Source of the DNA: a virus
Lineage: Duplodnaviria; Heunggongvirae; Uroviricota; Caudoviricetes
IMG/VR virus record: IMGVR_UViG_3300029858_000359
Length of the DNA: 46,624 nt
Strand: one strand, 5' to 3'
Part shown: positions 698 to 41,129 of the stretch, one piece after another
How the letters are laid out: every line of letters starts with the position of its first letter
How positions within the stretch are numbered: the stretch's first letter is position 1
Notes under the pieces: generated by a model
The model's input: the letters and a program-made list of their open reading frames with translations, nothing else
The model's database searches: none
What the model was told of the DNA's origin: nothing
Translations under genes and position numbers: made by a program

Positions 698-1060
698 GGG
701 GCTGATTCTGGATTCGACGGGATTTGCGAAACCCAAGGTGCATGCCGAGGGGCGGTTGGCCTCGTAAAAAGCCGCAAAAAATAGTCGCAAACGACGAAAA
801 CTACGCTTTAGCAGCTTAATAACCTGCTTAGAGCCCTCTCTCCCTAGCCTCCGCTCTTAGGACGGGGATCAAGAGAGGTCAAACCCAAAAGAGATCGCGT
901 GGAAGCCCTGCCTGGGGTTGAAGCGTTAAAACTTAATCAGGCTAGTTTGTTAGTGGCGTGTCCGTCCGCAGCTGGCAAGCGAATGTAAAGACTGACTAAG
1001 CATGTAGTACCGAGGATGTAGGAATTTCGGACGCGGGTTCAACTCCCGCCAGCTCCACCA
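698..1060 (+). ncRNA. ssrA: tmRNA (SsrA), about 363 nt
   Basis: Starts GGGGCTGATTCTGGATTCGACGGG, contains the tag-encoding stretch GCAAACGACGAAAACTACGCTTTAGCAGCTTAA, ends with tRNA-like arm GGGTTCAACTCCCGCCAGCTCCACCA. Confidence 0.95.
1028..1060. repeat. attL: ssrA 3'-end copy of the 33-bp direct repeat (partner at 41202-41234)
   Basis: CGGACGCGGGTTCAACTCCCGCCAGCTCCACCA recurs at 41202-41234 with one mismatch. Confidence 0.85.
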
Positions 1061-4307: not shown

Positions 4308-4909
4308 TGAATAACGCAGAATTAAACAGTGAATTAATTGCCACTATGGCAGGAGAAATTACTGTTTATAACTTTGACGTCATGAGTCGGGAGTATATTT
4401 CAGCTTCAACTGAATATCTTGCTGTTGGTGTCGGCATTCCGGCATATTCCTGTTTAGATGCTCCAGGCACCTACAAAGCTGGTTATGCAATCTGCCGCTC
4501 TGCAGATTTTAACTCATGGGAATATGTACCAGACCATCGCGGTGAAATCGTCTATAACACCGAAACGGGAGACGCCAAAGAAATCACAACTCCGGGTGAT
4601 TACCCCGAAAAAACAACCACTATCGCCCCGTTAACGCCATACGATAAATGGGATGGTGAGAAATGGGTGACGGATACTGAGACACAGCATAGCGCCGCAG
4701 TAGACGCGGCAGAAGCACAACGTCAGTCACTGATTGATACTGCAATGGCTTCCATTAGTCTGATTCAACTGAAATTGCAGGCCGGGCGGAAGCTGATGCA
4801 GGCAGAGACCACCCGACTTAACACTGTGCTGGATTACATTGACGCGGTGACGGCAACAGATACCAGTACCGCGCCGGATGTCATCTGGCCTGAACTGCCG
4901 GAGGAGTAG
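4307..4909 (+). CDS. Tail fibre assembly protein (partner of the alternative fibre segment)
   Basis: 200-aa ORF directly after the fibre segment; C-terminus LDYIDAVTATDTSTAPDVIWPELPE typical of Tfa proteins. Confidence 0.8.
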   Translation: MNNAELNSELIATMAGEITVYNFDVMSREYISASTEYLAVGVGIPAYSCLDAPGTYKAGYAICRSADFNSWEYVPDHRGEIVYNTETGDAKEITTPGDYPEKTTTIAPLTPYDKWDGEKWVTDTETQHSAAVDAAEAQRQSLIDTAMASISLIQLKLQAGRKLMQAETTRLNTVLDYIDAVTATDTSTAPDVIWPELPEE

Positions 4910-5312
4910 GCCATTCAATATCTGGCGCACTGGAAGTATCGACCAGTTCCAGTGCGTCCAGATAATCCAGCCACAAATTATATTGCGCCAGTTCCTCACC
5001 TTTCAGACGACCAATCGCCGCTTTACCAGGCCATTGTTTACTGTTCATGTATTCGTTGGCCTGATTAACTAATCGCTGTTTATTTGATTCAGCGATTGAG
5101 ATTAATTCTTCGCTGGTAAGTGGTGGCGCATCCTGCCATGCTGGAAAACCATTTTTATCTGAACCAAGTATTTTACCATCAGGCCATGCAACTCCTGCGA
5201 ACTCAGAATAAATAGTAAAGTTTATTTTCGTAGCGTTCTCAGGAATGGTTTGGCTATCTGGTGAAATATAAAATCCCGAATCAGAGGGATTAAAATAATA
5301 TGTCTTTTCCAT
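4881..5312 (-). CDS. Tail fibre assembly protein (partner of the currently expressed fibre)
   Basis: 143-aa ORF; C-terminus LWLDYLDALELVDTSSAPDIEWPTPP, Tfa-like. Confidence 0.8.
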   Translation of the reverse strand: MEKTYYFNPSDSGFYISPDSQTIPENATKINFTIYSEFAGVAWPDGKILGSDKNGFPAWQDAPPLTSEELISIAESNKQRLVNQANEYMNSKQWPGKAAIGRLKGEELAQYNLWLDYLDALELVDTSSAPDIEWPTPPAVQAR

Positions 5313-5314
5313 AG

Positions 5315-5962
5315 TTAATACCCCACAGCCATCCAGTAAATTGAATTTGTTGTAGCAGAAGTGTAAGTAAATCTGATTTTAGTTCTGTTGGTACTTCCAA
5401 TATCAAAGCCCACAGAACGGGCAGAAGGATCATTAGTTGAAATAAGAGCGTTTACCGAACGACAAGCAGCAGGGAAAGCTACAGGTAATGTTATATCAAC
5501 TGTTCCAACACTTCCTCCGGTTGGTGAGACAGAAAAACTCCCCCATTGAATAATCATCCCCCCAGGTAATTTCTGGTATCCATTGGCGGTCAATGAGTTA
5601 CCAAAGCTGTTCATATCCGGTACCTGATTTTCTCCTGTCCCCACATTCCTCTTTGCCGCTTCTCCCAAACCAAGGTTTTCGAGAGCTGTTTTCACCGTGC
5701 CATCCGATTTGATATCGCCAAACGGATTCTTGCGGCTTAACAGCAGCGCACGAAGCGCGGTAAGCAGCTGGTCATGCCGCCCCTTCTCCAGGCTGGCACC
5801 GGATGCCTCCACAACGCTGCAAAGCTCCTCCTGCAACATGTCAAAGTAGTCATCATCCAGATCGGTGGCAGGCGTGCCGGTCTGGGGGTTACCACGGGTA
5901 AAACCGTTCTTACCCGCGCCGAACTTATCCTTCTGCGCGGTTTTCGTGTCTATACGATGCAT
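5315..5962 (-). CDS. Tail fibre protein: constant N-terminus (about 5686-5962) fused to the currently oriented variable C-terminus
   Basis: 215-aa ORF crossing the right crossover site, which encodes ALENLGLGE. Confidence 0.75.
5660..5685. repeat. Invertase crossover site, right end of invertible segment
   Basis: TTCTCCCAAACCAAGGTTTTCGAGAG, inverted repeat of the site at 3802-3827. Confidence 0.8.
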
Positions 5963-27045: not shown

Positions 27046-27798
27046 TTATCTCGTCACCTTTCTCAATTGTGTTTCAGCATATGCTTCTTCCTGCCAGCAC
27101 TTTGTTACTAGTTTATCAATTACGTCTGCATATCCTTTGTACCACTGATAATCAGTCAGGTCTGGAACCAGCTTCTGGACATGACGTCGTGCCAGTGTAG
27201 TTGGTAAACGGCTAAACCGGTTTCCATTGCAACGCCCACAAATCTTATAAACAGGCGTGCCATGAAGCCGGGTCCTTTTTTCATCCAGGACAATACCTTT
27301 ACCCTTACACCCTCTGCACGCTGTGCTGACTTCTCCCTTACCATGACAATGCTGACATAGTTCCTTCACCCACTCTTCCTTGATAACAGATTCCCCGCTT
27401 CTGGAGTGTTTCACCACCTCGCGCAATACATTATGAAATCCAGTACCAGCACAATGCTCACAGCGAGCCTTACTTGCCGCAGACCTGGAATAATCAGCAA
27501 AGGCAAAATTCACAAGGTAAGGAATGATCTGTAGCCGGGTTTCTTCACTCAATTTATTCAATGTCGGGTTATCCAGTGCCATCGCGTAATTGAGCAGACC
27601 TTCAATCGCAAACTGAGGATCCTGAACACCAACTTTTGCCAGGAATAAGGCAAACCCAAGCGGTGCTTTCGACTGCACCATCCCCTGCGCAGCCATCACA
27701 TCCGTAATCGTTAAACCACCTGAGCCTGTCGCCGGTGCGTCATCGCTCAATTTTGGAGATTTTGGGGAGTAATATTTTGGTAAGGCTTCAAGGTTCAT
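27046..27798 (-). CDS. Putative antitermination protein Q with zinc-finger repeats
   Basis: Four CxxC(x)G motifs (CEHCAGTG, CQHCHGKG, CRGCKGKG, CGRCNG); position immediately upstream of PR'/tR' and the lysis cassette; start at the Met with GGAG ribosome-binding site. Confidence 0.6.
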   Translation of the reverse strand: MNLEALPKYYSPKSPKLSDDAPATGSGGLTITDVMAAQGMVQSKAPLGFALFLAKVGVQDPQFAIEGLLNYAMALDNPTLNKLSEETRLQIIPYLVNFAFADYSRSAASKARCEHCAGTGFHNVLREVVKHSRSGESVIKEEWVKELCQHCHGKGEVSTACRGCKGKGIVLDEKRTRLHGTPVYKICGRCNGNRFSRLPTTLARRHVQKLVPDLTDYQWYKGYADVIDKLVTKCWQEEAYAETQLRKVTR

Positions 27799-27811
27799 GC
27801 TCGTTCTCCAC

Positions 27812-28807
27812 TTACGCCAGTACGCCAATTGCCAGCGCACGATCGATAAAACGAAATATCAGCTCCAGTTGGGAGCCATACTTCTCTTCAAATGCCACGG
27901 TATCCGCATGCAGTTCGTCGTGATGCTTTCTGCACAAAGGCAACACAAAGAGGTCATGCGCTTTTGTACCCATTCCCCCCTGACCGTGGCCTATCAGGTG
28001 GTGGGGATCATCAGCAGGCTTTCCACAACATGCACACGGCTGTGTCTTAACCCAGCGCGTGTACTTTTCATTAACCCAGCGGCGACGTTTGGGGCGTAAC
28101 ATAAAAGACTCCGGCGACTCCGGCTCCACTTTCAGCGCCAGCACCTTTTTCGCCTTATCCTGGATGATGCTGGTGGCAGGAACCGAAGGCACAAGGTCAC
28201 TTTCCCGGGTGACAGACGGCGCAACAGGCTTCGGTAATCTCAGTGCCTTACGGGCTGCACTTTCCGGTAAAGCATCCGCCAGGTCATTACGAATCAGCCA
28301 CCAGCACAGTTCCGGCATTGTCACAACGTGACTGTCATCAAAACCGAGATCCCGACGCACAACAGACAACACCCAGCGGGCACAGTTATCCGTTGCCATT
28401 GATTCCAGCCGTTCCGTGAACTGATCGCGCAGCTGGTTATCGCAGTGCCAGCACAGACGGATTGCGCCCGGAGCGTGTCGCATTGTGGTCATGTTCTCGC
28501 TGTGCCAGTCGGAATGAGGCCACTGGCAGCCTTTTTCACGAAGTAACCAGCTTTCAAGACATTCCACTCCACCAGCACGACGAATCACTGCCTCATTGCG
28601 GAACACGGCCCGAACGGCAGGATCATCCGCCAGCGGTTGTGATGCCGCCGGAACGGCACCACTGGCGAAAGATGAATAACGTTCCGGCTCAGGCTCCAGC
28701 AGGACACGCCCCTGCATAAACAAGGGCATCAGCTCTGAACCTGGTCTGAACAATACGATCCCCATACGCGGGGCAATTTCAGGGGTCAGTAGTGCTCTCA
28801 CGGTCAC
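27812..28807 (-). CDS. DUF968-like phage protein
   Basis: C-terminal motif CACCGKPADDPHHLIGHGQGGMGTKAHDLFVLPLCRKHHDELH. Confidence 0.55.
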   Translation of the reverse strand: MTVRALLTPEIAPRMGIVLFRPGSELMPLFMQGRVLLEPEPERYSSFASGAVPAASQPLADDPAVRAVFRNEAVIRRAGGVECLESWLLREKGCQWPHSDWHSENMTTMRHAPGAIRLCWHCDNQLRDQFTERLESMATDNCARWVLSVVRRDLGFDDSHVVTMPELCWWLIRNDLADALPESAARKALRLPKPVAPSVTRESDLVPSVPATSIIQDKAKKVLALKVEPESPESFMLRPKRRRWVNEKYTRWVKTQPCACCGKPADDPHHLIGHGQGGMGTKAHDLFVLPLCRKHHDELHADTVAFEEKYGSQLELIFRFIDRALAIGVLA

Positions 28808-28808
28808 C

Positions 28809-29618
28809 TCAATGAACGGTAGCGAGCAGCTTTAATAGCTCAGGGAATCGGGATTCGAAAAAGTGCGGCTGCGTCTCGCGCGGATTTGCGGGACTGGTGA
28901 TGTTCTTGCCGAACATGCAGCCTTTCGCTGTTAGCGACCAGAATTTTTTGATGTTGTTAATCGCGGTACGGCTGTATCGTTCGCGCTGTTCGACGATCCC
29001 CAGCTTCACCATCTGGTGATATGCCTGATTAGCCGTAAGGCGGATACCATACTGCTTCAGCAGTGCACTCAATGATAGCGTAGGGCGGCTTGAGCCATCG
29101 AGTGCATCAGCAGGAGCATCAATGGCATAGCGCGGTGCCAGATTCGGTAAGCCAACAGCCTCCTGGAGTTTCTGACAGGCCCCAAGCACAGATGAGTTAG
29201 ACAGGTTTAACTCCCGACGCATAAAGTCCAGCAGAATCACTCCAGCCTGCATCTTGTCAGCAGCCTGTCCGGATAATTTTTCCGGTGCGCTGGTTACCAT
29301 GTCGAAAGTACGGATCACCTTCAGATGGAATGACGGGCTGATCCACATTGCATAGGCATACACCAGTTCCTTACAGACATACGTTCCCCGTTCATTTCCC
29401 CCATGAATCACACTCACCGGGTCAACACCCAAATTCTGGGTGTTGGTCAATTCATGAACAAGCTCAACAGTTTGTTGGCTGGAAAGAAACTTTCCTGGCT
29501 CCTTGGTTCTGGCATTTGCACCAGATGCTACTGCTGCGCGATGCAGATCGTTCAGGCTGTAACGCCCATAAGCATCACGACGAACTTCAATACCATCAAT
29601 GACCATCAGATTATTCAT
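28809..29618 (-). CDS. KilA-N domain or antirepressor-like protein
   Basis: 269-aa ORF; N-terminal region resembles the KilA-N fold. Confidence 0.45.
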   Translation of the reverse strand: MNNLMVIDGIEVRRDAYGRYSLNDLHRAAVASGANARTKEPGKFLSSQQTVELVHELTNTQNLGVDPVSVIHGGNERGTYVCKELVYAYAMWISPSFHLKVIRTFDMVTSAPEKLSGQAADKMQAGVILLDFMRRELNLSNSSVLGACQKLQEAVGLPNLAPRYAIDAPADALDGSSRPTLSLSALLKQYGIRLTANQAYHQMVKLGIVEQRERYSRTAINNIKKFWSLTAKGCMFGKNITSPANPRETQPHFFESRFPELLKLLATVH

Positions 29619-29637: not shown

Positions 29638-30027
29638 TCAGGCAGCTGCACCCGCCGTTTTCTCGTACTTACTGATAGTGATCTCGACCTTCGCTTCCGG
29701 GATAACCGGTCCCCACTCCACCAGCATTCTTTTCACCTGACTGTCGTCTTCCCACACCCCCGCGTGGGTCAGGGCGTCAAACAGCGCCTTGTTATAGTTG
29801 TCCAGATCGCGGATCCTGTTATCCGGAGGAAACAACACGATCTCCACTGAAGCAGGTGCCGACGTTGGTTTCGGCAGACGACGTAACTGCTCAACTATTG
29901 CTGCGCACGCCGCGCTCTGGAATTTTCGCCCCGCCGCGCTTATCAGGCTCTTACCAGCAAACGCCCCTTTGTTGGGGTGTCGCCAGTACGTGTTCACGCT
30001 GGGCGGAAAAGGCAGGATCAGCTTCAT
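29638..30027 (-). CDS. rusA: Holliday junction resolvase RusA
   Basis: 129 aa; MKLILPFPPSVNTYWRH and DLDNYNKALFDALTHAGVWEDDSQV motifs. Confidence 0.85.
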   Translation of the reverse strand: MKLILPFPPSVNTYWRHPNKGAFAGKSLISAAGRKFQSAACAAIVEQLRRLPKPTSAPASVEIVLFPPDNRIRDLDNYNKALFDALTHAGVWEDDSQVKRMLVEWGPVIPEAKVEITISKYEKTAGAAA

Positions 30028-30350
30028 ACTTTCAGGCCCCTCTCATGTAACCAGTGGGTTGCACGCAGCCTTGCGTTTTCCTCACCGGCAAGCAGTGAGC
30101 GGATAATCCCGACCGCCTCGCTGTCGTCGTCCTTCACCGCGGTATGAAGCGTGATGCCCCGGGCCACGCCACGCTTTATCGTGATGACGCCTTTTTTCTC
30201 CAGTGCGCGAAGATGCTCCACCGCTGCATTCACTGAACGGTATCCCAGCATGGTTGCCACCTCCTGATTGGTTGGCGGGAAGCCACGTTCTTTCTGATAA
30301 GAAATCAGCATATCCAGCACCTGCTGCTGGCATTGAGTTAACGTCGTCAT
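30024..30350 (-). CDS. LexA N-terminal DNA-binding domain protein lacking the S24 peptidase domain
   Basis: QQQVLDMLISYQKERGFPPTNQEVATMLGYRSVNAAVEHLRALEKKGVI closely parallels the LexA winged-helix region; only 108 aa. Confidence 0.7.
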   Translation of the reverse strand: MTTLTQCQQQVLDMLISYQKERGFPPTNQEVATMLGYRSVNAAVEHLRALEKKGVITIKRGVARGITLHTAVKDDDSEAVGIIRSLLAGEENARLRATHWLHERGLKV

Positions 30351-33371: not shown

Positions 33372-33572
33372 CTAATCTTTCGGATAGATATCCGGTCTTA
33401 AGTCAGATTTCGTAATTGCACCTGACGTGCATTGTTCAAGTTTTTTAGCCAGCACAAAACTGGCTTTTTTATAGCCATTGAAAACCAGCCGTAAGTAGCC
33501 AGGTGTTGAGCCAACTTTTCCGGCCAACTCGTCCTGCTGTTCTTTGGTTAAAGAGTCCCAATACGCTTTCAT
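33372..33572 (-). CDS. Cro-like repressor (helix-turn-helix), 66 aa
   Basis: MKAYWDSLTKEQQDELAGKVGSTPGYLRLVFNGYKKASFVLAKKLEQCTSG; divergent from cI across the operator region; GGAGG ribosome-binding site. Confidence 0.7.
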   Translation of the reverse strand: MKAYWDSLTKEQQDELAGKVGSTPGYLRLVFNGYKKASFVLAKKLEQCTSGAITKSDLRPDIYPKD

Positions 33573-33662: not shown

Positions 33663-34337
33663 ATGAAAACAATCCATGACATCCGGCGGTCTAACGCCAG
33701 AAAACTGAGAGATGGTGTTGGCGGGAATTCTTCCTTTGCCACTATGATTGATCGCGAGCCAACCCAGACCAGCAGGTTTATGGGAGATGGTGCTACTAAA
33801 AATATCGGTGACAGCATGGCACGACACATCGAAAAATGTTTCGACCTGCCTGTCGGATGGCTCGATCAAGAACACCAGACAACGAACATCACAAAAAAAC
33901 CTGATGTTTCAATCACTAATAAACAAATCACATTAGTCCCTGTCATATCATGGGTACAGGCCGGAGCATGGAAAGAAGTTGGATATTCTGAGGTTGATTT
34001 GAGCACAGCAGAAACGTATCCCTGCCCTGTACCCTGTGGGGAAATGACTTATATCTTGCGGGTGATAGGTGATTCAATGATTGATGATTACCGCCCGGGA
34101 GACATGATTTTTGTCGATCCTGAAGTACCTGCCTGCCACGGTGACGACGTTATTGCATTGATGCACGATACAGGTGAAACCACCTTCAAAAGGTTGATAG
34201 AAGATGGGACACAGCGTTATCTCAAAGCGTTAAACCCAAACTGGCCTGAGCCTTACATTAAGATCAACGGTAATTGCTCTATAATTGGTACAGTGATTTT
34301 CTCAGGAAAACCAAGAAGATACAAAATCAAAGCCTAA
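33663..34337 (+). CDS. CI-type prophage repressor with LexA-like S24 autopeptidase domain
   Basis: C-terminal domain with GDSM catalytic-serine motif and downstream Lys; N-terminal helix-turn-helix-like region. Confidence 0.85.
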   Translation: MKTIHDIRRSNARKLRDGVGGNSSFATMIDREPTQTSRFMGDGATKNIGDSMARHIEKCFDLPVGWLDQEHQTTNITKKPDVSITNKQITLVPVISWVQAGAWKEVGYSEVDLSTAETYPCPVPCGEMTYILRVIGDSMIDDYRPGDMIFVDPEVPACHGDDVIALMHDTGETTFKRLIEDGTQRYLKALNPNWPEPYIKINGNCSIIGTVIFSGKPRRYKIKA

Positions 34338-34350
34338 TCAATGTTTATGA

Positions 34351-34373
34351 ACCTGCTTCGGCAGGTTTTTTTA
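34351..34373 (+). terminator. Rho-independent terminator after cI
   Basis: ACCTGCTTCGGCAGGT hairpin followed by TTTTTTT. Confidence 0.7.
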
Positions 34374-34376
34374 TAC

Positions 34377-34404
34377 TTGACAATGTACCCTTGAGATACA
34401 TAAT
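34377..34404 (+). promoter_or_regulatory. Putative PL-like early promoter with flanking operator half-sites
   Basis: TTGACA, 16-nt spacer, CATAAT; ATGTACCC repeats within and after it match the OR half-site core. Confidence 0.5.
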
Positions 34405-34493
34405 GTACCCAAGAGAAACAACTAACAGGTAGGACGCCCACGAAGTAGCCGCCTGGGGCATATGAAGTCCAGGATGATTCGTTAGCAACAAAA

Positions 34494-34526
34494 AAGCGCC
34501 CTATAGGACGCTTCGCTCTTTAACAA
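34494..34526 (+). promoter_or_regulatory. Putative antitermination element: hairpin followed by consensus boxA
   Basis: AAGCGCCCTATAGGACGCTT hairpin then CGCTCTTTAACAA, matching the rrn/nut boxA core GCTCTTTAACAA. Confidence 0.45.
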
Positions 34527-34744
34527 TCTGGAGATCCCCAAAACTTAACGGGATTTTGGCTTCGGTTCTGGCGGTGAAGGACGAGGTTTTAAGGGTATAT
34601 GATCCTCTTTCCATGTATATATAAATGCATTCATTTGGTCATCTCAATATAGAATCCATTATTAATTCATACTCATAAAGCCTGTGTGACTTTGGTGATG
34701 GTGGTCTGGGCTTTGGAGGTACATGGTTAGGGATTATGGGAATT

Positions 34745-35224
34745 CTATTTGTCATTATTACACCTTTTTGACCGAGGCAAATCTCCAGCAAACCATGCGA
34801 TAACGCTATGCATGAATGATATTTCTGACTCATCAACACGTCCCAGCGCAATACAGGTCCGTTTGAACGCAGCATCTTGTAAAGATCTCCATGGATTACT
34901 ATCAGCGTCTTGAACCTTTAAAAACCGAGTGCGTAGTTCGTCATCAGAAAGGGAGGAAAACTCAACAATCAACCTTTTATACTGTCGCATCTGTTCCTTT
35001 GATAAGCCAGCTTCCTGCCCAAATTGGTATACCAATTGAAGCACCGACAAAATAGCTACAGATGCGCCAAAAATAAACATATTGCTATATGGCGCAAAAA
35101 CAGAAAAGCCCAAGACAATGAGAACAAGAGTTATGCTCTTGTCTATCCGATTTAAAAGGGTGTAATTCATTTTCTCAAGAAAGAAAGAATAATGAATATC
35201 GAATGCTAGATCGTCTCGAGTCAT
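34745..35224 (-). CDS. Hypothetical inner-membrane protein, 159 aa, about two transmembrane helices
   Basis: AT-rich ORF convergent to cI with AAGGGA ribosome-binding site; hydrophobic helices ITLVLIVLGFSVFAPY and FIFGASVAILSVLQLVY. Confidence 0.55.
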   Translation of the reverse strand: MTRDDLAFDIHYSFFLEKMNYTLLNRIDKSITLVLIVLGFSVFAPYSNMFIFGASVAILSVLQLVYQFGQEAGLSKEQMRQYKRLIVEFSSLSDDELRTRFLKVQDADSNPWRSLQDAAFKRTCIALGRVDESEISFMHSVIAWFAGDLPRSKRCNNDK

Positions 35225-35863
35225 CTCTATTCCCTTACATTTCAGGTTTCGGCTCAGGGATCGGTGCTGGTCTCTGATTTACCGGAACATGAAATTTTTC
35301 ATTGCTATCTACGTACATATTTCCTTCCTACCTGTTGTTGGGATATCCAGATTATACCGAATCCTTGTTGTTGGGGAATAACCAGGTCCACCTCGCCTGA
35401 TGTGGCTAAAAGCAGGCACATAACAGCTAAGTATTTTCAACCAGAGAGAATCCTTAGCGTTGTGGTGAATGCGGCTCAGCGCACGCGGGTTAAGGTTAAG
35501 GCTGACAGTCGACCTTCTGTGGATACCCACCCGTCTGGTGTACAACCTTCGCCAGGCACCGGGAGGCACCCGGCACCACAACTTTATGCTGTGTGTTGTC
35601 TTGGCGGTACCAGCTTGTACCCTTGCTTCCGGCTGGTACCGTCCTTTTTACAAAACAGAGAAGAGCATCATCGGACGACGGGCTCATAACCCAATCCATC
35701 CGGGCGGCTGCCACCGCAGGTGTTCTTCTCTGTTTTGTGGAGAAACTAACCGCCCCTACGGGGGCATTTATGGAAATGTAATTGACTCAATAATCGCCGG
35801 ACGGTGAGGGCTTCCTTTTACCCGAATTCAGCGCGGTGCAGCGCATATAACGTGGAGAACAAA

Positions 35864-36400
35864 ATGTCATTTATTAAAACTTTTTCCGGGAAGCATTTTT
35901 ATTATGACAGGATAAATAAAGACAACATCGATATTAACGATATCGCGGTTTCCCTTTCAAATATCTGTCGCTTTGCCGGCCATCTTTCACACTTCTACAG
36001 CGTCGCCCAACATGCGGTGCTTTGCAGCCAGCTGGTACCGCAGGAATTTGCTTTTGAAGCGTTAATGCATGATGCGACAGAAGCGTATTGCCAGGACATC
36101 CCCGCGCCACTGAAACGCCTTCTTCCCGACTATAAACGGATGGAAGAAAAAATAGACGCCGTAATCCGTGAGAAATACGGGTTACCCACGGTTATGAGCA
36201 CGCCTGTGAAATATGCCGATCTCATCATGCTGGCAACCGAACGCCGCGATCTCGGGCTTGATGATGGCTCTTTCTGGCCTGTACTGGAAGGTATCCCGGC
36301 AACAGAGATGTTCAACGTGATTCCACTGGCACCGAGCCATGCCTACGGGATGTTTATTGAGCGCTTCAACGAGTTATCGGAGTTACGCAAATGCGCATGA
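35864..36400 (+). CDS. HD-domain phosphohydrolase (YfbR-like 5'-deoxynucleotidase fold)
   Basis: HD motifs AGHLSHFYSVAQHAV and ALMHDATEAY; start at the Met with GGAG ribosome-binding site 7 nt upstream. Confidence 0.7.
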   Translation: MSFIKTFSGKHFYYDRINKDNIDINDIAVSLSNICRFAGHLSHFYSVAQHAVLCSQLVPQEFAFEALMHDATEAYCQDIPAPLKRLLPDYKRMEEKIDAVIREKYGLPTVMSTPVKYADLIMLATERRDLGLDDGSFWPVLEGIPATEMFNVIPLAPSHAYGMFIERFNELSELRKCA

Positions 36401-36753
36401 ATGTTTTCGAAATGGAAGGGTTTCTTCGCGGGAAATGTGTACCGCGAGATCTGAAAGTGAATGAAACGGATGCTGAATACCTGATACGTAAATTCGATGC
36501 GCTTGAAGCTAAATGTGCAGCACTGGAAAACAAAGTAATACCAGTGTCAGCTGAACTGCCGCCAGCACATGAAAGTGTTCTGTTATTTGATGCTAATGGA
36601 GAAGGCTGGCTGATTGGCTGGCGTTCTCTCTGGTACACATGGGGGCAAAAAGAAACCGGAGAATGGCAGTGGACATTTCAGGTCGGGGACCTTGAAAAGG
36701 TCAATATTACCCACTGGGCAGTAATGCCGAAAGCACCGGAGAATAAAAAATGA
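36397..36753 (+). CDS. DUF551-like phage protein
   Basis: Trp-rich C-terminus WLIGWRSLWYTWGQKETGEWQW...THWAVMP; ATGA overlap with the upstream stop. Confidence 0.45.
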   Translation: MNVFEMEGFLRGKCVPRDLKVNETDAEYLIRKFDALEAKCAALENKVIPVSAELPPAHESVLLFDANGEGWLIGWRSLWYTWGQKETGEWQWTFQVGDLEKVNITHWAVMPKAPENKK

Positions 36754-36965
36754 GCGTGATAAAAACTCATACAGGAATTGTTATCACCCGAGACGGTGAA
36801 AAGCGGATGAAATTACATTCCACTGAAACCTCCTGGGTTGTCGGACGTTGTGAATCCTACGACAAAAAGACTGGTTACCGTTGGGGCGCGCCAAACATGC
36901 GCCGCCGTCTGCTCCTGGACAGCATCAGGCCAATAAAACAAGTAGCAACCAGAGAACAAAATTAA
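36750..36965 (+). CDS. Hypothetical small protein, 71 aa
   Basis: ATGA overlap with the upstream gene. Confidence 0.4.
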   Translation: MSVIKTHTGIVITRDGEKRMKLHSTETSWVVGRCESYDKKTGYRWGAPNMRRRLLLDSIRPIKQVATREQN

Positions 36966-37012
36966 TTATCAGGACTGGAATTTAATATTACTGCCCATGT
37001 GCAGCGGGCTAA

Positions 37013-37231
37013 GTGGAGAAACATATGCTGAACCTCGATTGTGTTCCTATCTCAACTTATTGCAAAGAAACTGGCGAAACTCCTGAAGCAATAAACAAAC
37101 GTGTACAGCGCGGTGTTTGGCGTGAAGGTGTTCAGGTTTTAAAGGTTGAAGGCGTTAAGGAGAGGTGGATTGATCTTAGTGAGGTTGCAAAATGGGCCAG
37201 ACAAAACTGCTCAAACTACCGCGCGGCGTAA
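37013..37231 (+). CDS. Excisionase (Xis-like)
   Basis: 72-aa basic protein with GGAG ribosome-binding site, overlapping the start of the integrase gene. Confidence 0.65.
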   Translation: MEKHMLNLDCVPISTYCKETGETPEAINKRVQRGVWREGVQVLKVEGVKERWIDLSEVAKWARQNCSNYRAA

Positions 37232-38358
37232 CAATCAGGAAACACCGCCAGGGCGAAACGATCAATATAACTTTCACCTACAAAGGCGTTAAATGTCGTG
37301 AGCCTCTTTCCAATCTGGAAGTAACACCAAAGAACATTAAATACGCCGAGCGCACACTCGGCGAAATTCATAATAAGATCGAAAGGGGAACATTCATTTA
37401 TGCGGAATATTTTCCCCGTTCTGCTCGTTTGAAAATTTTTGGTAATGCTGCTGCAGGCAAAACGGTAAAAATGTACCTGGACGAATACCTTGAAATCTGC
37501 GAAACGAGAAAACTTTCACCATCTACGATTGGTGGTTATAAAAAATGCCGTAGTGCGTTAGCCTCACTCCACATTTGCCCTGCAAGTGAATTAACACCAG
37601 CAATCCTGAAAGCGTGGATTCAAAGCCAGAAAACGACCTTAAAAACAATTCGCAACCAGTTATCTTTCCTGCGGTCAGCACTTGATGAAGCCGTAACCGA
37701 TGGGGTACTTCAAATTAACCCCGTATCGTTGGTAACTGCTTCGCGCTACCAAAGTGATAAGTCAGAAGCAGAAAGCAGCTATGTGGTTGATCCGCTATCA
37801 CCAGCAGAAGTTGATGCATTACTAGCAGCAGCCGGAAACAAACAATGGGAAAATCTGTTCCGGTTCGCCATACATACAGGCCTGCGTAGTTCTGAATTAT
37901 GTGCCCTACGATGGCATGATATCGACTTTGTTGGAAAAACAGCCCATGTTCAGAGCGCAAGTGTTGTCGGAGTTATCAAAGGAACAAAGACAAAAGCCGG
38001 TACCCGTAAAGTTGAACTGACTGAAGAAGCAATGTTGGCGTTGATAAACCAGAAGCCATTTACATTCATGAAGGATGCTACTGTCTTTGAAGATCCAAAG
38101 ACCAATAAACCCTGGGCAAGTGCTGATGCAATTAGGAAAAAAGCATGGGTGCCAACATTGCGAAAAGCAGGTATTCGTTACAGAAACCCATATCAAACCA
38201 GGCATACATTCGCCACCAGACATATCAGCCGGGGAGCAAACCTGTTTTGGCTTGCAGCTCAAATGGGGCATAAAGGGCCTGAGATGCTTTTCAGGCACTA
38301 TGGCTCATATCTGAAGGAATATGATGGACAAACAAGCTTGAAGAAGATAACAATATAA
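37192..38358 (+). CDS. Tyrosine integrase of the prophage
   Basis: 388 aa; C-terminal catalytic region RHTFATRHISRGANLFWLAAQMGHKGPEMLFRHYGSY. Confidence 0.9.
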   Translation: MGQTKLLKLPRGVTIRKHRQGETINITFTYKGVKCREPLSNLEVTPKNIKYAERTLGEIHNKIERGTFIYAEYFPRSARLKIFGNAAAGKTVKMYLDEYLEICETRKLSPSTIGGYKKCRSALASLHICPASELTPAILKAWIQSQKTTLKTIRNQLSFLRSALDEAVTDGVLQINPVSLVTASRYQSDKSEAESSYVVDPLSPAEVDALLAAAGNKQWENLFRFAIHTGLRSSELCALRWHDIDFVGKTAHVQSASVVGVIKGTKTKAGTRKVELTEEAMLALINQKPFTFMKDATVFEDPKTNKPWASADAIRKKAWVPTLRKAGIRYRNPYQTRHTFATRHISRGANLFWLAAQMGHKGPEMLFRHYGSYLKEYDGQTSLKKITI

Positions 38359-38375
38359 TCCAAGCATGAAACTAT

Positions 38376-38400
38376 TGGCCACAATTTGTGGCCATTTTAC
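38376..38400 (+). terminator. Perfect 19-bp palindrome followed by T-run between int and the OLD-like gene (terminator or operator)
   Basis: TGGCCACAATTTGTGGCCA followed by TTTTAC. Confidence 0.45.
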
Positions 38401-38416
38401 GGAGCAAGATAGAAAC

Positions 38417-40150
38417 ATGGCAAATCAAATTACCAAACTAAAAAATATAAATGTTGTGAAGTTTCGCGGACTGAAAAATATAAACATCGAGTTTGGTTCT
38501 CGCCTAACTGTTATTTGTGGTAAAAATGGCACATCTAAATCCACAATTCTTGGCATTATCGCCCAAATATTTAGCTTTACAAAGGACTTTACCAAAAACC
38601 CTGAGACTGATTTAACACAATATAAAACATTAACAAATGGCAGCTTCAAGTCAGCTTTCAGCGAACATTTTAGGCTTTCAGAACAATTTGATGTTCCTGG
38701 TTCAATGGACGTCAAAATTAGTGTCTATGATGGTGCATCGAACAAACATCTTGAAAAACTAACATTAGGTTTATACAGCTACAGTGACAGAGATAAATCA
38801 AGGCCTGTAGTCAGGGGAAATGATTCAATACCGGAAAAAAACCAAAGTAGAAACGTTACTCATCCTGTTATTTTTTTAAGCTTAGCACGACTTCTTCCTA
38901 TTACATTAAGGACTGATTACTCAACACGGGATGTTCAGTACATCAATGAAAATTCTGATGAAATCAGAATGATGAGTAACCAACTCTTACTAAAAAACAA
39001 TGGAAGCTCAGTAACAGCAACAAAAGGTACTATCGATTCAATGGTTGTCCATGGTGACAATTATGATCACCAATCAGTATCTGTTGGTGAAGATAATGTT
39101 GGACAATTAATCCAAGCAATTTTTTCATTTAAAAGATTGAAGGAAACTTATTCTGATTATCATGGCGGAATATTGTTAATTGATGAAGCCGATGCAGGTC
39201 TTTTCCCTGCTGCACAGTTAGAGCTAATTAATATTCTAACTAAAGCAGCAAAACAATACGATCTGCAAATAATCATGACCTCGCACTCTCCATTAATAAT
39301 AGAGGATATCTATAATCGTTCAAAACAAGATAGTGATAGCTTTAAAACAATATATCTTACAGACACATATGGAGATATTAAAACAAAGAATAATCTTTCA
39401 TGGACAGATATCCACGCTGATTTACATGTTGAAACTGTAAAAATTAATGATGACATTTGTCTTCCAAAGGCAAATGTATATTTTGAAGACAAAGAAGGTT
39501 TCGACTTTTTCAAACAATTGATAACAGATCGAAAAATAAATAAAATATTAAATCCATTAGGGAATATAAATATTAGCTGCTCTGCCATGCTTGACTTAAT
39601 GGCAAGAAAAATACCAGAATTTACAGCTAAAAGCTTGATCGTCTTAGACGGTGATGTTGTTCACGACAATAGTGCTAATGCAAAAAAAGCCAAAAAAGAA
39701 AAAAACTTATGTTTGCTTCCAAGCACCTTACCTCCAGACCAAATGATTTTTGAGTTTTTATATAATTTACCACCTGATGATGCATATTGGGAAAATAAAA
39801 ATAAATTTACAAAAGCTGTTTTTATGAAAACAGCTAAAGACATAATTGCAACGCTAAAGATTGGTAACGCTCCGATTGATTTAAAAATCCTTATAGATAA
39901 TTATAAAAAAGTTAACAAAAACCATGGCGGGATAGTTAGAAAACTGTTTAAAGATTTTGCACATACGACTCAATTTCAGGCCCAAGTAAAAGGGCGAGTT
40001 AAAGATAACCCATATCGATATTGGGTCGAGAAAAATCCTGTGCAATCGGATAGCTTCAAGAATGAACTAATAAAGAGTCTTAAAGTTATTATGACAAGTG
40101 GACATGGTGTCGATTCTGCTACCATCTCATCATATCTGTCAGATAACTAA
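38417..40150 (+). CDS. OLD-family nuclease-like protein: N-terminal ABC/AAA-type ATPase plus C-terminal TOPRIM-like domain
   Basis: Walker A GKNGTSKST, Walker B ILLIDEADAG, TSHSP signature, C-terminal FEDKEG and LIVLDGDVVHD (Glu and DxD TOPRIM-like); start at MANQITK (ORF track start 38366 lacks a ribosome-binding site). Confidence 0.7.
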   Translation: MANQITKLKNINVVKFRGLKNINIEFGSRLTVICGKNGTSKSTILGIIAQIFSFTKDFTKNPETDLTQYKTLTNGSFKSAFSEHFRLSEQFDVPGSMDVKISVYDGASNKHLEKLTLGLYSYSDRDKSRPVVRGNDSIPEKNQSRNVTHPVIFLSLARLLPITLRTDYSTRDVQYINENSDEIRMMSNQLLLKNNGSSVTATKGTIDSMVVHGDNYDHQSVSVGEDNVGQLIQAIFSFKRLKETYSDYHGGILLIDEADAGLFPAAQLELINILTKAAKQYDLQIIMTSHSPLIIEDIYNRSKQDSDSFKTIYLTDTYGDIKTKNNLSWTDIHADLHVETVKINDDICLPKANVYFEDKEGFDFFKQLITDRKINKILNPLGNINISCSAMLDLMARKIPEFTAKSLIVLDGDVVHDNSANAKKAKKEKNLCLLPSTLPPDQMIFEFLYNLPPDDAYWENKNKFTKAVFMKTAKDIIATLKIGNAPIDLKILIDNYKKVNKNHGGIVRKLFKDFAHTTQFQAQVKGRVKDNPYRYWVEKNPVQSDSFKNELIKSLKVIMTSGHGVDSATISSYLSDN

Positions 40151-40157
40151 TTGATTA

Positions 40158-40196
40158 AAAAGGGCTTTATGTGATGGCCACAAAGCCCTTTTTTTG
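40158..40196 (+). terminator. Rho-independent terminator after the OLD-like gene
   Basis: AAAGGGCTTT-loop-AAAGCCCTTT followed by TTTTTT. Confidence 0.65.
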
Positions 40197-40229
40197 ATAT
40201 ACTTTAGATCTGACATTTAGAGGTATCAT

Positions 40230-41129
40230 ATGCGTTTTAACACCCCACTTCGCTATCCTGGCGGTAAAGGCAAGCTTGCAAATTTCATGCTTCGGCTTAT
40301 TGAAGAAAATAATCTTTCGCCTATACATTATGCCGAACCATATGCTGGGGGTGCTGGTTTAGCATTGAAACTGTTACATCTAAATGCAGCTGAAAAAATC
40401 ATCCTTAATGATATTAATATTTCTGTTTATGCTTTTTGGCACAGTGTATTAAATCATGCAGATCAATTATGTTCTTTAATTGAAAGAACTGAAGTTACAA
40501 TGGATGAATGGTTTAGGCAGAAAGATATAATTAATAATCCTAAAGACCATGATCTTTTAACAATTGGTTTCTCAACCTTTTTTCTCAATAGAACAAATCG
40601 TTCTGGAATATTAAAAGGTGGAGTAATTGGCGGTAAAAATCAAGAAGGGAAATGGAAGCTTGACGCTCGCTATAATAAGAGTGATTTGATTTCTCGAATC
40701 CATAAAATATCAGAAAATCGTCACAGAATAGATTTATATAACATGGATGCAATTGATTTCATTAAAAAAATAGTTATTCAATTGCCACAAAACTCATTAA
40801 CATATTTGGATCCACCTTATTACATAAAAGGTAAAGGTTTATATATCAACCATTATAATCATGATGATCATGTTAGGGTTGCAAAAGTCGTACAGAATAA
40901 TATTAAAACACCTTGGATTGTTTCTTACGATAACACTCCTGAGATCCAAGCTATGTATAAGACATCATCATTAGTATATGGAATAAACTACAGTGCTCAA
41001 GATCGGTACAAAGGATCTGAGGTAATGTTCTTCAGTGAACGATTGAAAATCTTTAAAACAGATGATCCAACTAAGGTAAAAGCGCCTGTATTTAAAAGAG
41101 GATGTGTTGACGACCACATCCAGACATAA
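40230..41129 (+). CDS. Dam-family (alpha-class) N6-adenine DNA methyltransferase
   Basis: Motifs RYPGGKGKL, EPYAGGAG (AdoMet binding) and DPPY (catalytic), order as in Dam; AGAGG ribosome-binding site. Confidence 0.8.
   Translation: MRFNTPLRYPGGKGKLANFMLRLIEENNLSPIHYAEPYAGGAGLALKLLHLNAAEKIILNDINISVYAFWHSVLNHADQLCSLIERTEVTMDEWFRQKDIINNPKDHDLLTIGFSTFFLNRTNRSGILKGGVIGGKNQEGKWKLDARYNKSDLISRIHKISENRHRIDLYNMDAIDFIKKIVIQLPQNSLTYLDPPYYIKGKGLYINHYNHDDHVRVAKVVQNNIKTPWIVSYDNTPEIQAMYKTSSLVYGINYSAQDRYKGSEVMFFSERLKIFKTDDPTKVKAPVFKRGCVDDHIQT

What the first reader, a model, noticed from the sequence alone, without database searches (positions are those of the whole stretch)
34377..34530. PL-like promoter followed by a hairpin and a consensus rrn-type boxA, but no recognisable N gene
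Seen in sequence: TTGACA-16-CATAAT promoter embedded in ATGTACCC operator-like repeats just after cI, then a hairpin (34494-34513) and CGCTCTTTAACAA (34514-34526), which matches the boxA core. Established knowledge: boxA recruits NusB/NusE in nut and rrn antitermination. Inference: the early-left transcript may use N-independent, RNA-based or host-factor-only antitermination, or N has been lost; notably the hairpin precedes boxA as in rrn leaders rather than lambda nut.
Basis: partly seen in the sequence, partly recalled or inferred. Interest (0 to 1): 0.45.

Follow-up and report, generated by a model that had tools for sequence, protein, structure and literature searches.

The report
N-less prophage PL leader with boxA
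This is the early-left control region of an E. coli prophage that has no N antiterminator: its transcript starts with a widely conserved, apparently undescribed 68-nt structured RNA and, in a minority of relatives including this one, continues into a conserved ribosomal-type boxA, so it offers a testable case of protein-N-independent early antitermination.

Summary
A repressor-controlled PL promoter (34377-34404), a hairpin (34494-34513) and a perfect rrn-type boxA (34515-26) are present, and no N gene was found.

The interpretation needs revising.
- The hairpin is built for the opposite strand. It looks like the intrinsic terminator of a reverse-oriented moron and is only a weak hairpin in the PL transcript.
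- The boxA is conserved more strongly than both of its flanks in relatives with different immunity regions and cargo. The same 18-mer follows promoter A3 in phage T7. It probably loads NusB/NusE without N.
Positions 34419-34486 form a 68-nt RNA that starts about 9 nt after the predicted transcript start. Two helices show abundant compensatory changes and the 26-nt core is near-invariant.
- I found this RNA in hundreds of prophages across Enterobacterales (e14 of K-12, SfV, ST64B, Gifsy-like, ZF40). Only 1 of 202 non-redundant loci encodes an N-like protein by a crude λ/P22-type test.
- It matches no Rfam family and is unrelated to HK022/HK639 put RNA.

This RNA is the best candidate for RNA-based antitermination, but its function is unproven. 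No function here was tested; every functional statement is inference from sequence and context.

The parts
33663..34337 (+). cI-type repressor gene (YmfK / LexA-family, e14 immunity type)
   Evidence: ORF; annotated ymfK 'LexA family protein' in an identical E. coli prophage; cI in SfV/SfIV/PhiR29.
34349..34368 (+). intrinsic terminator of cI
   Evidence: 8-bp stem followed by a T run; annotated as a terminator in SfV.
34377..34404 (+). PL promoter (-35 TTGACA 34377-82, -10 CATAAT 34399-404); predicted start about 34411
   Evidence: 11/12 match. The start site is inferred from spacing.
34383..34420 (.). OL operators: 19-bp palindrome 34383-34401 plus a tandem copy at 34402-34420
   Evidence: ATGTAC-N7-GTACAT is shared with OR at 33578-96 and 33628-46.
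34419..34486 (+). 68-nt conserved structured leader RNA. P1 is 34420-25 / 34478-83 (one U.C mismatch here; the alternative register 34422-26 / 34481-85 is perfect). A small hairpin GGU-AGGAC-GCC lies at 34428-38. The conserved core is 34427-51. P2 is 34452-56 / 34469-73 with a 12-nt loop GGCAUAUGAAGU. It ends in AUGA at 34474-77.
   Evidence: Alignment A1 of 56 sequences: 94.5% of cells paired, 10 of 11 pairs with compensatory changes, covariation 0.73 against at most 0.15 for slid controls; RNAalifold finds the same helices. Model R1 gives one hit in the window, 82 bits, E 7e-26. No Rfam match.
34487..34514 (-). intrinsic terminator for leftward (minus-strand) transcripts: stem-loop 34494-34513 followed, on the minus strand, by a U run (A run 34490-95 on the + strand)
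   Evidence: Scored as a minus-strand terminator, GAAGCGTCCTATAGGGCGCTTT + TTTGTTGC. The hairpin is -11.7 kcal/mol on the minus strand and -7.2 on the plus strand. The minus strand is more stable in 33 of 34 variants.
34515..34531 (+). boxA GCTCTTTAACAA (34515-26) with the recurrent 3' extension TCTGG
   Evidence: Exact and unique in the window. In 11 of 11 copies of the GCGCCC...GGACGC hairpin found in loci picked only by the leader core, the 9-mer GCTCTTTAA and the A two bases after it (GCTCTTTAA-N-A) are invariant, while the loop, linker and 3' flank vary. The 18-mer CGCTCTTTAACAATCTGG is identical in T7 at 812-829.
34541..34542 (.). mosaic junction: homology to SfIV, PhiR29 and Kati-type phages ends here and variable cargo begins
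   Evidence: Matches cover query positions 1-212 only; alignment of downstream sequences.
34745..35224 (-). reverse-oriented moron ORF (159 aa, hydrophobic segments, PHROG 6315, unknown function) whose transcript would end at the 34494-34513 terminator
35429..35652 (+). STnc100-like RNA ending in a strong + strand terminator-like hairpin (about 35603-35643, then CUUUUU)
   Evidence: Rfam RF02076, 40.4 bits, below the gathering score of 47, E 1.6e-6. The same element is present in SfV, SfIV, PhiR29 and 689R6. Hairpin -22 kcal/mol, z -3.5.
35864..38358 (+). first translated early-left genes: yfdR 35864-36400, 36391-36753, 36750-36965, xis 37013-37231, int 37192-38358
   Evidence: The predicted PL start is 1453 nt upstream of the first + strand gene.

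Best explanation
The interval is the early-left (PL) promoter-operator region and composite 5' leader of an e14/SfV-type temperate prophage of E. coli that has a Q-type late antiterminator but no N.

Shown by sequence:
- A promoter overlapped by repressor operators starts transcription at about 34411.
- The transcript begins with a 68-nt RNA (34419-34486). It has two covarying helices and a near-invariant single-stranded core, and it occurs at this position in prophages across Enterobacterales.
- Next comes a hairpin that is a strong intrinsic terminator only on the opposite strand.
- A perfect rrn-type boxA follows, at the last conserved bases before variable cargo.

Inferred:
- The hairpin stops convergent transcription from the reverse-oriented moron (34745-35224) before it reaches PL and cI, while letting PL transcription through.
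- The boxA, once transcribed, binds NusB/NusE(S10). With NusA, NusG and SuhB it converts the RNA polymerase leaving PL into a Rho-resistant form. This is the mechanism described at rrn leaders and CRISPR-array leaders, and I presume it also applies to the T7 early leader, which carries the same 18-mer.
- That would allow the polymerase to cross 1.45 kb with no translated + strand ORF before yfdR-xis-int.
- The 68-nt leader RNA is the best candidate for a cis-acting element, functionally like put, that modifies the same polymerase. It would help it pass intrinsic terminators such as the one at about 35603-35650, which Nus/boxA complexes handle poorly.

My step likelihoods: minus-strand terminator about 0.8; boxA is a functional Nus site about 0.6; the leader RNA is a genuine functional RNA about 0.9; it acts in antitermination or antipausing about 0.35.
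For: Promoter and operators.

Leader RNA:
- 94.5% of cells paired, 10 of 11 pairs with compensatory changes, slid controls far lower. The top mutual-information column pairs are exactly P1 and P2 in 84 distinct sequences.
- One copy in the window.
- Found just downstream of repressor genes of different immunity types in SfV, SfII, SfIV, ST64B/F1055, ZF40, YeP1, SPN3UB and in e14 of K-12. In mEp237 the genes immediately upstream are uncharacterised co-oriented ORFs, not an annotated repressor.
- The core 20-mer occurs in 95 stretches of species-representative genomes, almost all Enterobacterales.
- A promoter-like site (at least 9/12) lies within 70 nt upstream in 47 of 89 loci. In those, the median distance from the end of the -10 element to P1 is 11 nt.
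- Only 1 of 202 non-redundant loci has a lambda/P22-type Arg-rich N-like ORF within 3 kb.

Hairpin. A minus-strand ORF comes first in 19 of 20 viral boxA+ loci against 26 of 84 boxA- loci.

boxA:
- Exact rrn 12-mer and a perfect match to the consensus of PMC5725501.
- Conserved more than its flanks in 11 of 11 modules from loci chosen without reference to boxA.
- Occurs with different repressors and leaders, for example Kp4882-1.
- Recurs next to strong promoters in unrelated phages (20 of 66) and next to hairpins (18 of 66 against 3 of 66).
- The identical 18-mer is present in T7.

Precedent for boxA protecting untranslated RNA from Rho: PMC7665894.

Need for read-through: a strong + strand terminator-like hairpin lies upstream of yfdR, there is no + strand gene for 1453 nt, and C-rich/G-poor stretches occur at 34600-34680 and 34960-35040.
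Against: - Nothing here is experimental.
- A single boxA consensus match arises by chance in 13% of shuffles.
- About 80% of leader-bearing loci have no boxA within 1.5-2 kb, so boxA is accessory.
- In the less redundant species-representative set, the link between boxA and a reverse-oriented first gene is weak (10 of 14 against 22 of 51, Fisher p 0.076). The untranslated gap is not longer in boxA+ loci.
- In suhB, boxA acts negatively (PMC5725501).
- The hairpin stem shows almost no covariation, so its RNA role rests on asymmetry and context only.
- For the leader RNA there is no sequence or structure similarity to put.
- One relative (L303, Xenorhabdus) carries the leader together with boxA, a boxB-like hairpin and an N-like gene. 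The RNA is therefore not strictly an alternative to N.
- My crude terminator count did not show an excess of same-strand terminators downstream of the leader.
Confidence: 0.55

Rival explanations
1. The hairpin-boxA unit is only a polar or bidirectional terminator plus a conserved recombination boundary for moron exchange. On this view the boxA-like bases are the U-rich tail of the + strand side, or a relic of an ancestral nutL whose boxB and N were replaced, and they have no function in the PL transcript today.
For: - The unit sits exactly at the mosaic junction.
- The hairpin and boxA are almost always found together.
- The minus strand is the stronger terminator.
- A relative with leader + boxA + boxB + N exists and could represent the ancestral state.
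- A lone consensus match is not rare by chance.
Against: - The 9-mer GCTCTTTAA and the A two bases after it are invariant in 11 of 11 modules, while the loop, linker and 3' flank vary. AACAA is not needed for termination.
- The same extended motif lies near early promoters in unrelated phages, including T7, without any A-run terminator.
- The + strand 'U tract' (UCGCUCUUU) is poor and was not scored as a terminator.
Confidence: 0.2
2. The boxA acts negatively, as in suhB. The Nus complex bound at boxA would dampen the early-left operon by blocking ribosome access or promoting Rho termination, for example to limit xis/int or moron-antisense transcription.
For: BoxA-dependent repression is documented for suhB (PMC5725501). 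In SfIV/Kati-type relatives a 68-aa + strand ORF with a good Shine-Dalgarno sequence starts about 45 nt after boxA.
Against: In this window no + strand ORF or ribosome-binding site lies within 50 nt of boxA. The contexts resemble rrn and CRISPR leaders, that is, long untranslated RNA.
Confidence: 0.1
3. The 68-nt leader RNA is not an antiterminator. It could be a binding site for a conserved host RNA-binding protein (for example CsrA, since GGA sits in the loop of the small GGC-AGGAC-GCC hairpin and a second GGAUGA lies 40 nt away). It could be a 5'-end stabiliser against RNase E, or a ligand-sensing (riboswitch-like) aptamer that tunes early-left expression to host physiology.
For: - Conserved single-stranded core with covarying helices, typical of aptamers and protein sites.
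- GGA in the small hairpin loop is kept in divergent members, and the stem shows one compensatory change, GUC/GAC in L132.
- It coexists with N/nut in L303 and with boxA in about 18% of loci, so it is not redundant with Nus-based antitermination.
- There was no excess of same-strand terminators downstream in a crude scan.
Against: - The conserved core is much longer than a CsrA site, and the second GGA is not invariant.
- No conserved expression platform or ribosome-binding site follows P1; downstream sequences differ completely.
- Its position 4-10 nt from the transcript start in phages that lack N mirrors putL (PMC9378689).
Confidence: 0.35
4. An unrecognised phage-encoded protein, an N analogue encoded elsewhere (for instance in the PR operon), uses the leader RNA or the hairpin-boxA as its nut-like site.
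For: Several early genes are of unknown function. N proteins are small and diverge fast, so profile searches can miss them.
Against: The leader RNA is nearly identical in phages whose early genes, immunity regions and virion types differ (SfV-like myoviruses, Gifsy-like and lambda-like siphoviruses, ZF40). This points to a conserved host partner. No Arg-rich ORF lies in the PL operon, and no PHROG N family was hit.
Confidence: 0.1

Closest known systems
rrn operon leader antitermination site (boxB-boxA-boxC; NusA/B/E/G, SuhB, S4 complex)
   Same: Identical 12-nt boxA GCUCUUUAACAA. A hairpin lies immediately 5' of boxA. No phage N is involved. The RNA downstream is long and untranslated.
   Different: No GU-rich boxC follows. 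The hairpin here is optimised for the opposite strand, as a terminator. The operon is a phage mRNA operon under repressor control.
BoxA sites outside rRNA: CRISPR-array leaders (PMC7665894) and the suhB 5'UTR (PMC5725501)
   Same: A lone consensus boxA (GYTCTTTAANA) in a promoter-proximal leader with no boxB and no N. In CRISPR leaders it protects untranslated RNA from Rho.
   Different: Phage early-left operon. Coupled to a polar terminator at a moron junction. Preceded by a second conserved RNA element.
Lambda nutL / N system
   Same: Same place in the genome (first about 100 nt of the PL transcript) and presence of a boxA.
   Different: Lambda has boxA-spacer-boxB followed by N. Here there is no boxB, no N, and the hairpin is 5' of boxA. 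Lambda's PL leader shares only the 9-mer GCAGGACGC with the 68-nt RNA (not significant).
HK022 / HK639 put antiterminator RNAs
   Same: A structured RNA of about 70 nt at the very 5' end of the PL transcript of lambdoid phages that lack N. HK639, like this phage, has a single copy, and it is annotated 'putL-like antiterminator RNA'.
   Different: No sequence or structural similarity. put is two tandem stem-loops with its own conserved sequence (PMC9378689). This RNA is a closing helix P1 around a 26-nt conserved strand and one internal hairpin. Model R1 finds nothing in HK022 or HK639. Its function is untested.
Phage T7 early leader downstream of promoters A1-A3
   Same: The identical 18-mer CGCTCTTTAACAATCTGG, about 65 nt after A3 and before the first gene, in a phage without N. 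About 170 T7-like genomes share this leader region.
   Different: Lytic phage with no repressor or operators. No A-run terminator hairpin and no 68-nt leader RNA.

Membership tests
lambda-type nut site with N | boxA consensus on the transcribed strand | tested here: met
   GCTCTTTAACAA at 34515-26, exact.
lambda-type nut site with N | boxB: short GC stem with a GNRA-like pentaloop a few nt 3' of boxA, conserved among relatives | tested here: not met
   The only hairpin 3' of boxA (34531-57) has an 11-nt loop and z -0.9. It lies in window-specific cargo beyond the homology break at 34541.
lambda-type nut site with N | Arg-rich N protein gene downstream of PL | tested here: not met
   No + strand ORF between 34530 and 35864 hits an N family. 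No Arg-rich-motif ORF on the + strand of the operon.
N-independent BoxA / Nus-factor site (rrn, CRISPR leader, suhB type) | perfect match to GYTCTTTAANA in a promoter-proximal transcribed leader | tested here: met
   about 105 nt after the predicted PL start. The start site is inferred, not mapped.
N-independent BoxA / Nus-factor site (rrn, CRISPR leader, suhB type) | motif conserved beyond its flanks in related loci | tested here: met
   The 9-mer GCTCTTTAA and the A two bases after it are invariant in 11 of 11 modules from loci ascertained by the leader only; loop, linker and 3' flank vary.
N-independent BoxA / Nus-factor site (rrn, CRISPR leader, suhB type) | binds NusB/NusE and recruits SuhB; mutation changes Rho-dependent termination | not testable with these tools
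   Needs ChIP, gel shift or reporter assays.
rrn leader (full boxB-boxA-boxC) | GU-rich boxC 3' of boxA | tested here: not met
   34527-34560 reads TCTGGAGATCCCCAAAACTTAACGGGATTTTGGC; there is no UGUGUGGG-like element.
put antiterminator RNA (HK022/HK639) | location at the 5' end of the PL transcript of an N-less lambdoid phage | tested here: met
put antiterminator RNA (HK022/HK639) | put consensus sequence and two tandem stem-loops | tested here: not met
   Direct comparison with HK022 putL and the annotated HK639 putL. Model R1 has no hit in either phage. I did not build a put model.
put antiterminator RNA (HK022/HK639) | read-through depends on the RNA polymerase beta' zinc-binding domain and needs no protein factor | not testable with these tools
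   Requires rpoC mutants or in vitro transcription.
intrinsic (Rho-independent) terminator, minus strand | GC-rich stem-loop followed by a U tract, downstream of a co-oriented gene | tested here: met
   the ORF at 34745-35224 (-) lies upstream on that strand.
intrinsic (Rho-independent) terminator, minus strand | transcripts end there | not testable with these tools
   Needs Term-seq or a northern blot.
Rfam RF02076 STnc100 (35429-35652) | score at or above the family gathering threshold | tested here: not met
   40.4 bits against 47; 38-42 bits in relatives.

The most novel reading that the evidence does not exclude
The 68-nt leader RNA (34419-34486) is a new class of cis-acting RNA that reprograms the RNA polymerase that has just made it (processive antitermination or antipausing). 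It would be the functional substitute for N/nut in the large N-less group of enterobacterial temperate phages (e14, SfV/SfII/SfIV, ST64B, Gifsy-like, ZF40, mEp237). In some of them it would be supplemented by an N-independent boxA that adds Rho resistance.
Probability: 0.3. Interest if true: 0.85.

Novelty: new variant of a known kind. Interest (0 to 1): 0.6.

Why it matters
Early antitermination in temperate phages is textbook biology for lambda (N/nut) and for one exception (HK022 put). How the very common N-less prophages of E. coli, Shigella and Salmonella (e14, SfV-like, ST64B, Gifsy-like) get their early-left transcripts past terminators and Rho has not, to my knowledge, been worked out.

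This locus offers two concrete, mutable elements.
- A lone rrn-type boxA. If it works, it extends Nus-factor antitermination without N to prophage early operons. It would also link them to the same motif in T7.
- A strongly conserved, covarying RNA at the 5' end of PL. It has no Rfam family, and I found no description of it in the searchable literature.

A copy of the RNA is in E. coli K-12 itself (the ymfJ leader of e14), so the experiments are simple. If the RNA acts on RNA polymerase, it would be only the second natural RNA class of this kind in phages. Even if it does something else, it is a widespread phage regulatory RNA that is worth naming.

Tried and rejected
- Rfam at permissive E-values, on the window and on nine related loci: nothing covers the leader RNA or the boxA module. 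Only the STnc100-like element appeared, plus C4, isrK and isrB elsewhere in relatives.
- put membership: rejected by direct comparison and by the model search.
- Homology of the leader to the lambda PL leader: only the 9-mer GCAGGACGC is shared; E = 3 with filters off, so not significant.
- Extra pairings or a pseudoknot in the leader (for example columns 30-32 with the P2 loop): mutual information over 84 sequences supports only P1 and P2. The small GGC/GCC hairpin has one compensatory example.
- Excess of same-strand intrinsic terminators downstream of leaders: my predictor was too permissive (about 2.4 sites per kb on the opposite strand) and showed no enrichment. I treat it as uninformative.
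- 'boxA marks long untranslated stretches': supported in the redundant viral set but not convincingly in the species-representative set.
- STnc1310 of ST64B (PMC7067206): by its coordinates in the supplement it lies about 326 nt downstream of cI, so it is not the leader RNA.
- Literature: searches for the core sequence, for put-like RNAs and for Gifsy/ST64B nut sites found no description. The King et al. 2011 put paper is not held.
- Second boxA on the PR transcript: ACTCTTTAACC inside cro (33545-56, minus strand) fails the consensus at two positions and is in coding sequence. I judged it to be chance.
Full report
**1. What the window is**

The region lies in an E. coli prophage of the e14/SfV/SfIV/CPS-53 kind. 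The gene order around the finding is as follows.
- Minus strand: cro (YmfT/YdaS-type), a CII-like gene (PF06892), replication genes, and a Q-type late antiterminator at 27046-27840 (PF03589).
- Plus strand: cI (YmfK, LexA family, 33663-34337), then the finding, then yfdR-like genes, xis and int.

Parts of 34340-35300 match DNA in 1812 of 5426 complete E. coli genomes. Fifty-two of them carry at least 80% of it, nearly all at 99% identity or more.

**2. Checking the observation**

- Promoter: TTGACA-16-CATAAT at 34377-34404 scores 11/12.
- Operators: the 'ATGTACCC repeats' are halves of 19-bp palindromic operators, ATGTAC-N7-GTACAT. Copies lie at PL (34383-34401, with a tandem copy at 34402-20) and at OR (33578-96, 33628-46). 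This is a true PL/OL.
- Hairpin: 34494-34513 exists.
- boxA: GCTCTTTAACAA (34515-26) is exact and unique in the window. It fits the consensus GYTCTTTAANA of Baniulyte et al. (PMC5725501) perfectly.
- Chance: on its own, one consensus match appears in 13 of 100 shuffles. The motif's weight therefore comes from context and conservation.
- No N: there is no PHROG or Pfam N hit and no Arg-rich ORF on the + strand between PL and int.
- The first translated + strand gene (yfdR, 35864) is 1453 nt from the predicted start.

**3. The hairpin**

The scan scored it as a terminator on the minus strand: GAAGCGTCCTATAGGGCGCTTT followed by TTTGTTGC.
- As RNA, the minus strand forms 8 uninterrupted pairs including one G.U (-11.7 kcal/mol for the hairpin alone). 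UUUUUUGUUG follows.
- The PL strand has a C.A mismatch (-7.2 kcal/mol). UCGCUCUUU follows, and this was not scored as a terminator.
- Across 34 distinct variants of the module, the minus strand is the more stable in 33 (mean -11.3 against -7.0 kcal/mol). The loop sequence varies freely.
- In phages that carry the module, the longest ORF starting within 450 nt beyond boxA is on the minus strand in 19 of 20 viral loci, against 26 of 84 loci without it. The species-representative set gives a weaker result: 10 of 14 against 22 of 51, p 0.076.
- In this window that ORF is a 159-aa hydrophobic protein at 34745-35224.

I conclude that the hairpin is mainly a polar terminator. It ends moron transcripts before they run into PL and cI, and it lets PL transcription pass.

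Among 66 unrelated viral contexts of the motif, 18 have a hairpin ending within 3 nt of boxA, against 3 for a control window.

**4. The boxA**

- Homology to SfIV, PhiR29/49, Kati and 689R6 runs through the leader, hairpin and boxA and stops at 34541, where the cargo differs.
- Kati-type phages have a different repressor and operators but the same leader, hairpin and boxA.
- Klebsiella phage Kp4882-1 has yet another repressor and a different leader, but the same hairpin and boxA.
- In loci collected only by the leader core, and so unbiased for boxA, all 11 copies of this hairpin are followed by GCTCTTTAA(C/A)AAT. The loop, the linker base (A/C/T) and the sequence 3' of boxA vary. That is the signature of selection on boxA itself.
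- A scan of viral contigs for GCTCTTTAACAATCT found the motif in many unrelated phage leaders, 20 of 66 within 140 nt of a strong sigma-70-type promoter.
- These include Stx2a phages and T7-like phages. T7 itself has the identical 18-mer CGCTCTTTAACAATCTGG at 812-829, after promoter A3.

BoxA without N is known to recruit Nus factors at rrn, at CRISPR leaders where it prevents Rho termination of untranslated RNA (PMC7665894), and at suhB where it represses (PMC5725501). The likeliest role here is Rho resistance for a PL transcript that must cross 1.45 kb of untranslated sequence antisense to the moron. C-rich/G-poor stretches occur there. This role is inferred, not shown. The general correlation between boxA and untranslated distance did not hold up.

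**5.

Between the promoter and the hairpin lies a stretch (34417-34485) that blastn finds just downstream of the repressor gene in SfV, SfII, SfIV, ST64B/F1055, ZF40 (Pectobacterium), YeP1-3 (Yersinia) and SPN3UB (Gifsy-like). It also finds it in mEp237, where the genes immediately upstream are uncharacterised ORFs, and in AH07 (Pantoea), mEp460, phiNP (Citrobacter) and Klebsiella phages, whose contexts I did not inspect. Aeromonas phage pAEv1818 gave only a partial match at E 0.4, which I do not count.

- Alignment of 56 diverse copies gives a 68-nt element with three parts. A closing helix P1. A 26-nt strand, CAGGCAGGACGCCCACGAAGUAGCCG, that is almost invariant. A hairpin P2 with the loop GGCAUAYGAAnn, followed by AUGA.
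- P1 and P2 are paired in 94.5% of cells. Ten of 11 pairs show compensatory changes (180 cells), and the covariation score is 0.73 against at most 0.15 when partners are slid.
- In 84 distinct sequences, the top mutual-information column pairs are exactly these helices.
- A covariance model finds one copy in the window (34419-34486, 82 bits, E 7e-26) and a copy in the ymfJ leader of e14 in E. coli K-12 (72 bits).
- The core 20-mer occurs in 95 stretches of species-representative genomes, nearly all Enterobacterales, with several copies in some Xenorhabdus genomes.
- A promoter-like site (at least 9/12) lies within 70 nt upstream in 47 of 89 loci. In those, the median distance from the end of the -10 element to P1 is 11 nt, so the RNA forms the 5' end of the transcript.
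- No Rfam family matches, and no held paper contains the core sequence.
- It is not a put RNA. HK022 putL and the annotated HK639 putL share their own consensus and a two-stem-loop architecture, and the model finds nothing in either phage (PMC9378689).
- In this window P1 has one U.C mismatch. A register shifted by three nucleotides (34422-26 / 34481-85) pairs perfectly.

**6. What the leader RNA might do**

For an antitermination or antipausing role:
- It sits where putL sits.
- It occurs in phages that lack N: only 1 of 202 non-redundant loci has a lambda/P22-type Arg-rich ORF within 3 kb (a crude test).
- Its sequence is constant while repressors, cargo genes and virion types change, which points to a conserved host partner such as RNA polymerase.
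- The operon contains at least one strong + strand terminator-like hairpin before yfdR-xis-int (35603-35650, -22 kcal/mol).

Against, or for other roles:
- One Xenorhabdus prophage has the leader followed by boxA-GAUA-GCGCUGAAAAAGCGC (boxB-like) and, after an IS, an N-like gene.
- About 18% of loci add a boxA within 150 nt, in several different arrangements.
- GGA in the loop of a small GGC/GCC hairpin would suit CsrA.
- The architecture would also suit a small aptamer.

I therefore give antitermination about 0.35, and I list the alternatives as rival explanations.

**7. Verdict**

The finding is real, and more interesting than a lone boxA, but for partly different reasons than proposed. The region is a composite N-independent early-left leader made of:
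- a conserved 5' structured RNA;
- a polar terminator for a reversed moron;
- an rrn-type boxA at the moron junction.

The boxA part is a new variant of a known kind, namely Nus sites outside rRNA. The leader RNA appears to be an undescribed family of unknown mechanism.

Noticed in passing
window 35429-35652 (+): STnc100-like structured RNA (Rfam RF02076, 40.4 bits, below the gathering score of 47). It is conserved at the same place in SfV, SfIV, PhiR29 and 689R6, between the moron region and the yfdP/yfdR genes. It ends in a strong + strand terminator-like hairpin. PGAP annotates a 'frameshifted hypothetical protein' over it.
   Followed up: partly
window 38366-41129 (+): Directly after int lie a 594-aa AAA ATPase (generic PtuA/AriA/GajA-type ATPase hits) and a 299-aa methyltransferase that matches PADLOC PD-Lambda-5_B (E 5e-124). 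This is probably a defence cassette at the prophage end.
   Followed up: partly
window 33545-33556 (-), inside cro: The PR transcript contains ACUCUUUAACC, a near-boxA with two departures from the consensus, within the cro coding sequence. I judged it to be chance, but its conservation was not examined.
   Followed up: no
L240 (phage lambda) 671-679 (-), i.e. +5 to +13 of the lambda PL transcript: Lambda's PL leader shares the 9-mer GCAGGACGC with the core of the 68-nt RNA at about the same distance from the start. It then has a small hairpin with an AUGAA loop before boxA. The match is not significant by the covariance model (E = 3). It could be a vestige or a coincidence.
   Followed up: partly
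L010 2565-2640, L011 2560-2640, L012 2960-3000 and many Gifsy-like loci: A second conserved leader element, ..UUAACGCGCAGCAGGU..AACGUUCCGC(N)GGCC(N)GCG.., follows the 68-nt RNA in Gifsy-like and mEp237-like phages. Its small hairpin appears to covary. In Klebsiella phage Kp4882-1 it occurs without the 68-nt RNA.
   Followed up: no
L303 (Xenorhabdus bakwenae) 4238-5881: This prophage has, in order: the 68-nt leader, a canonical-looking nutL (boxA GCUCUUUAACA, spacer GAUA, boxB-like GCGCUGAAAAAGCGC), an IS630-like insertion, and an N-like ORF (MHNFHGYDNARKRRHERRKELQ...). It is the only leader locus of 202 with a lambda/P22-type Arg-rich motif.
   Followed up: partly
L336 (phage T7) 413-430 = T7 812-829: T7 carries CGCTCTTTAACAATCTGG between promoter A3 and gene 0.3, identical to window 34514-34531. 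About 170 T7-like genomes share the surrounding leader.
   Followed up: partly
L001 (SfV) 1403-1591 and L006 (F1055) 794-982, minus strand: C4 antisense RNA and isrK (both above the Rfam thresholds) lie in the PR-side 'immunity region' of SfV and F1055. This suggests a P1-like c4/ant-type secondary immunity module. I did not look for it in this window.
   Followed up: no
L239 (Stx2a phage P13374) 1801-1915: In Stx2a phages the same boxA motif (GCTCTTTAACAATCTGGAG) lies between restriction-modification genes and a regulatory/antB/antiterminator gene block, preceded about 45 nt upstream by a boxB-like GCCCUUACACAGGGC hairpin. The Kluyvera locus L286 joins the 68-nt leader to this same boxA cassette.
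   Followed up: no
window 30024-30350 (-) and 28809-29618 (-): The PR operon contains a small protein with only a LexA DNA-binding domain (PF01726, 108 aa) and a KilA-N protein. These are possible extra regulators of induction.
   Followed up: no
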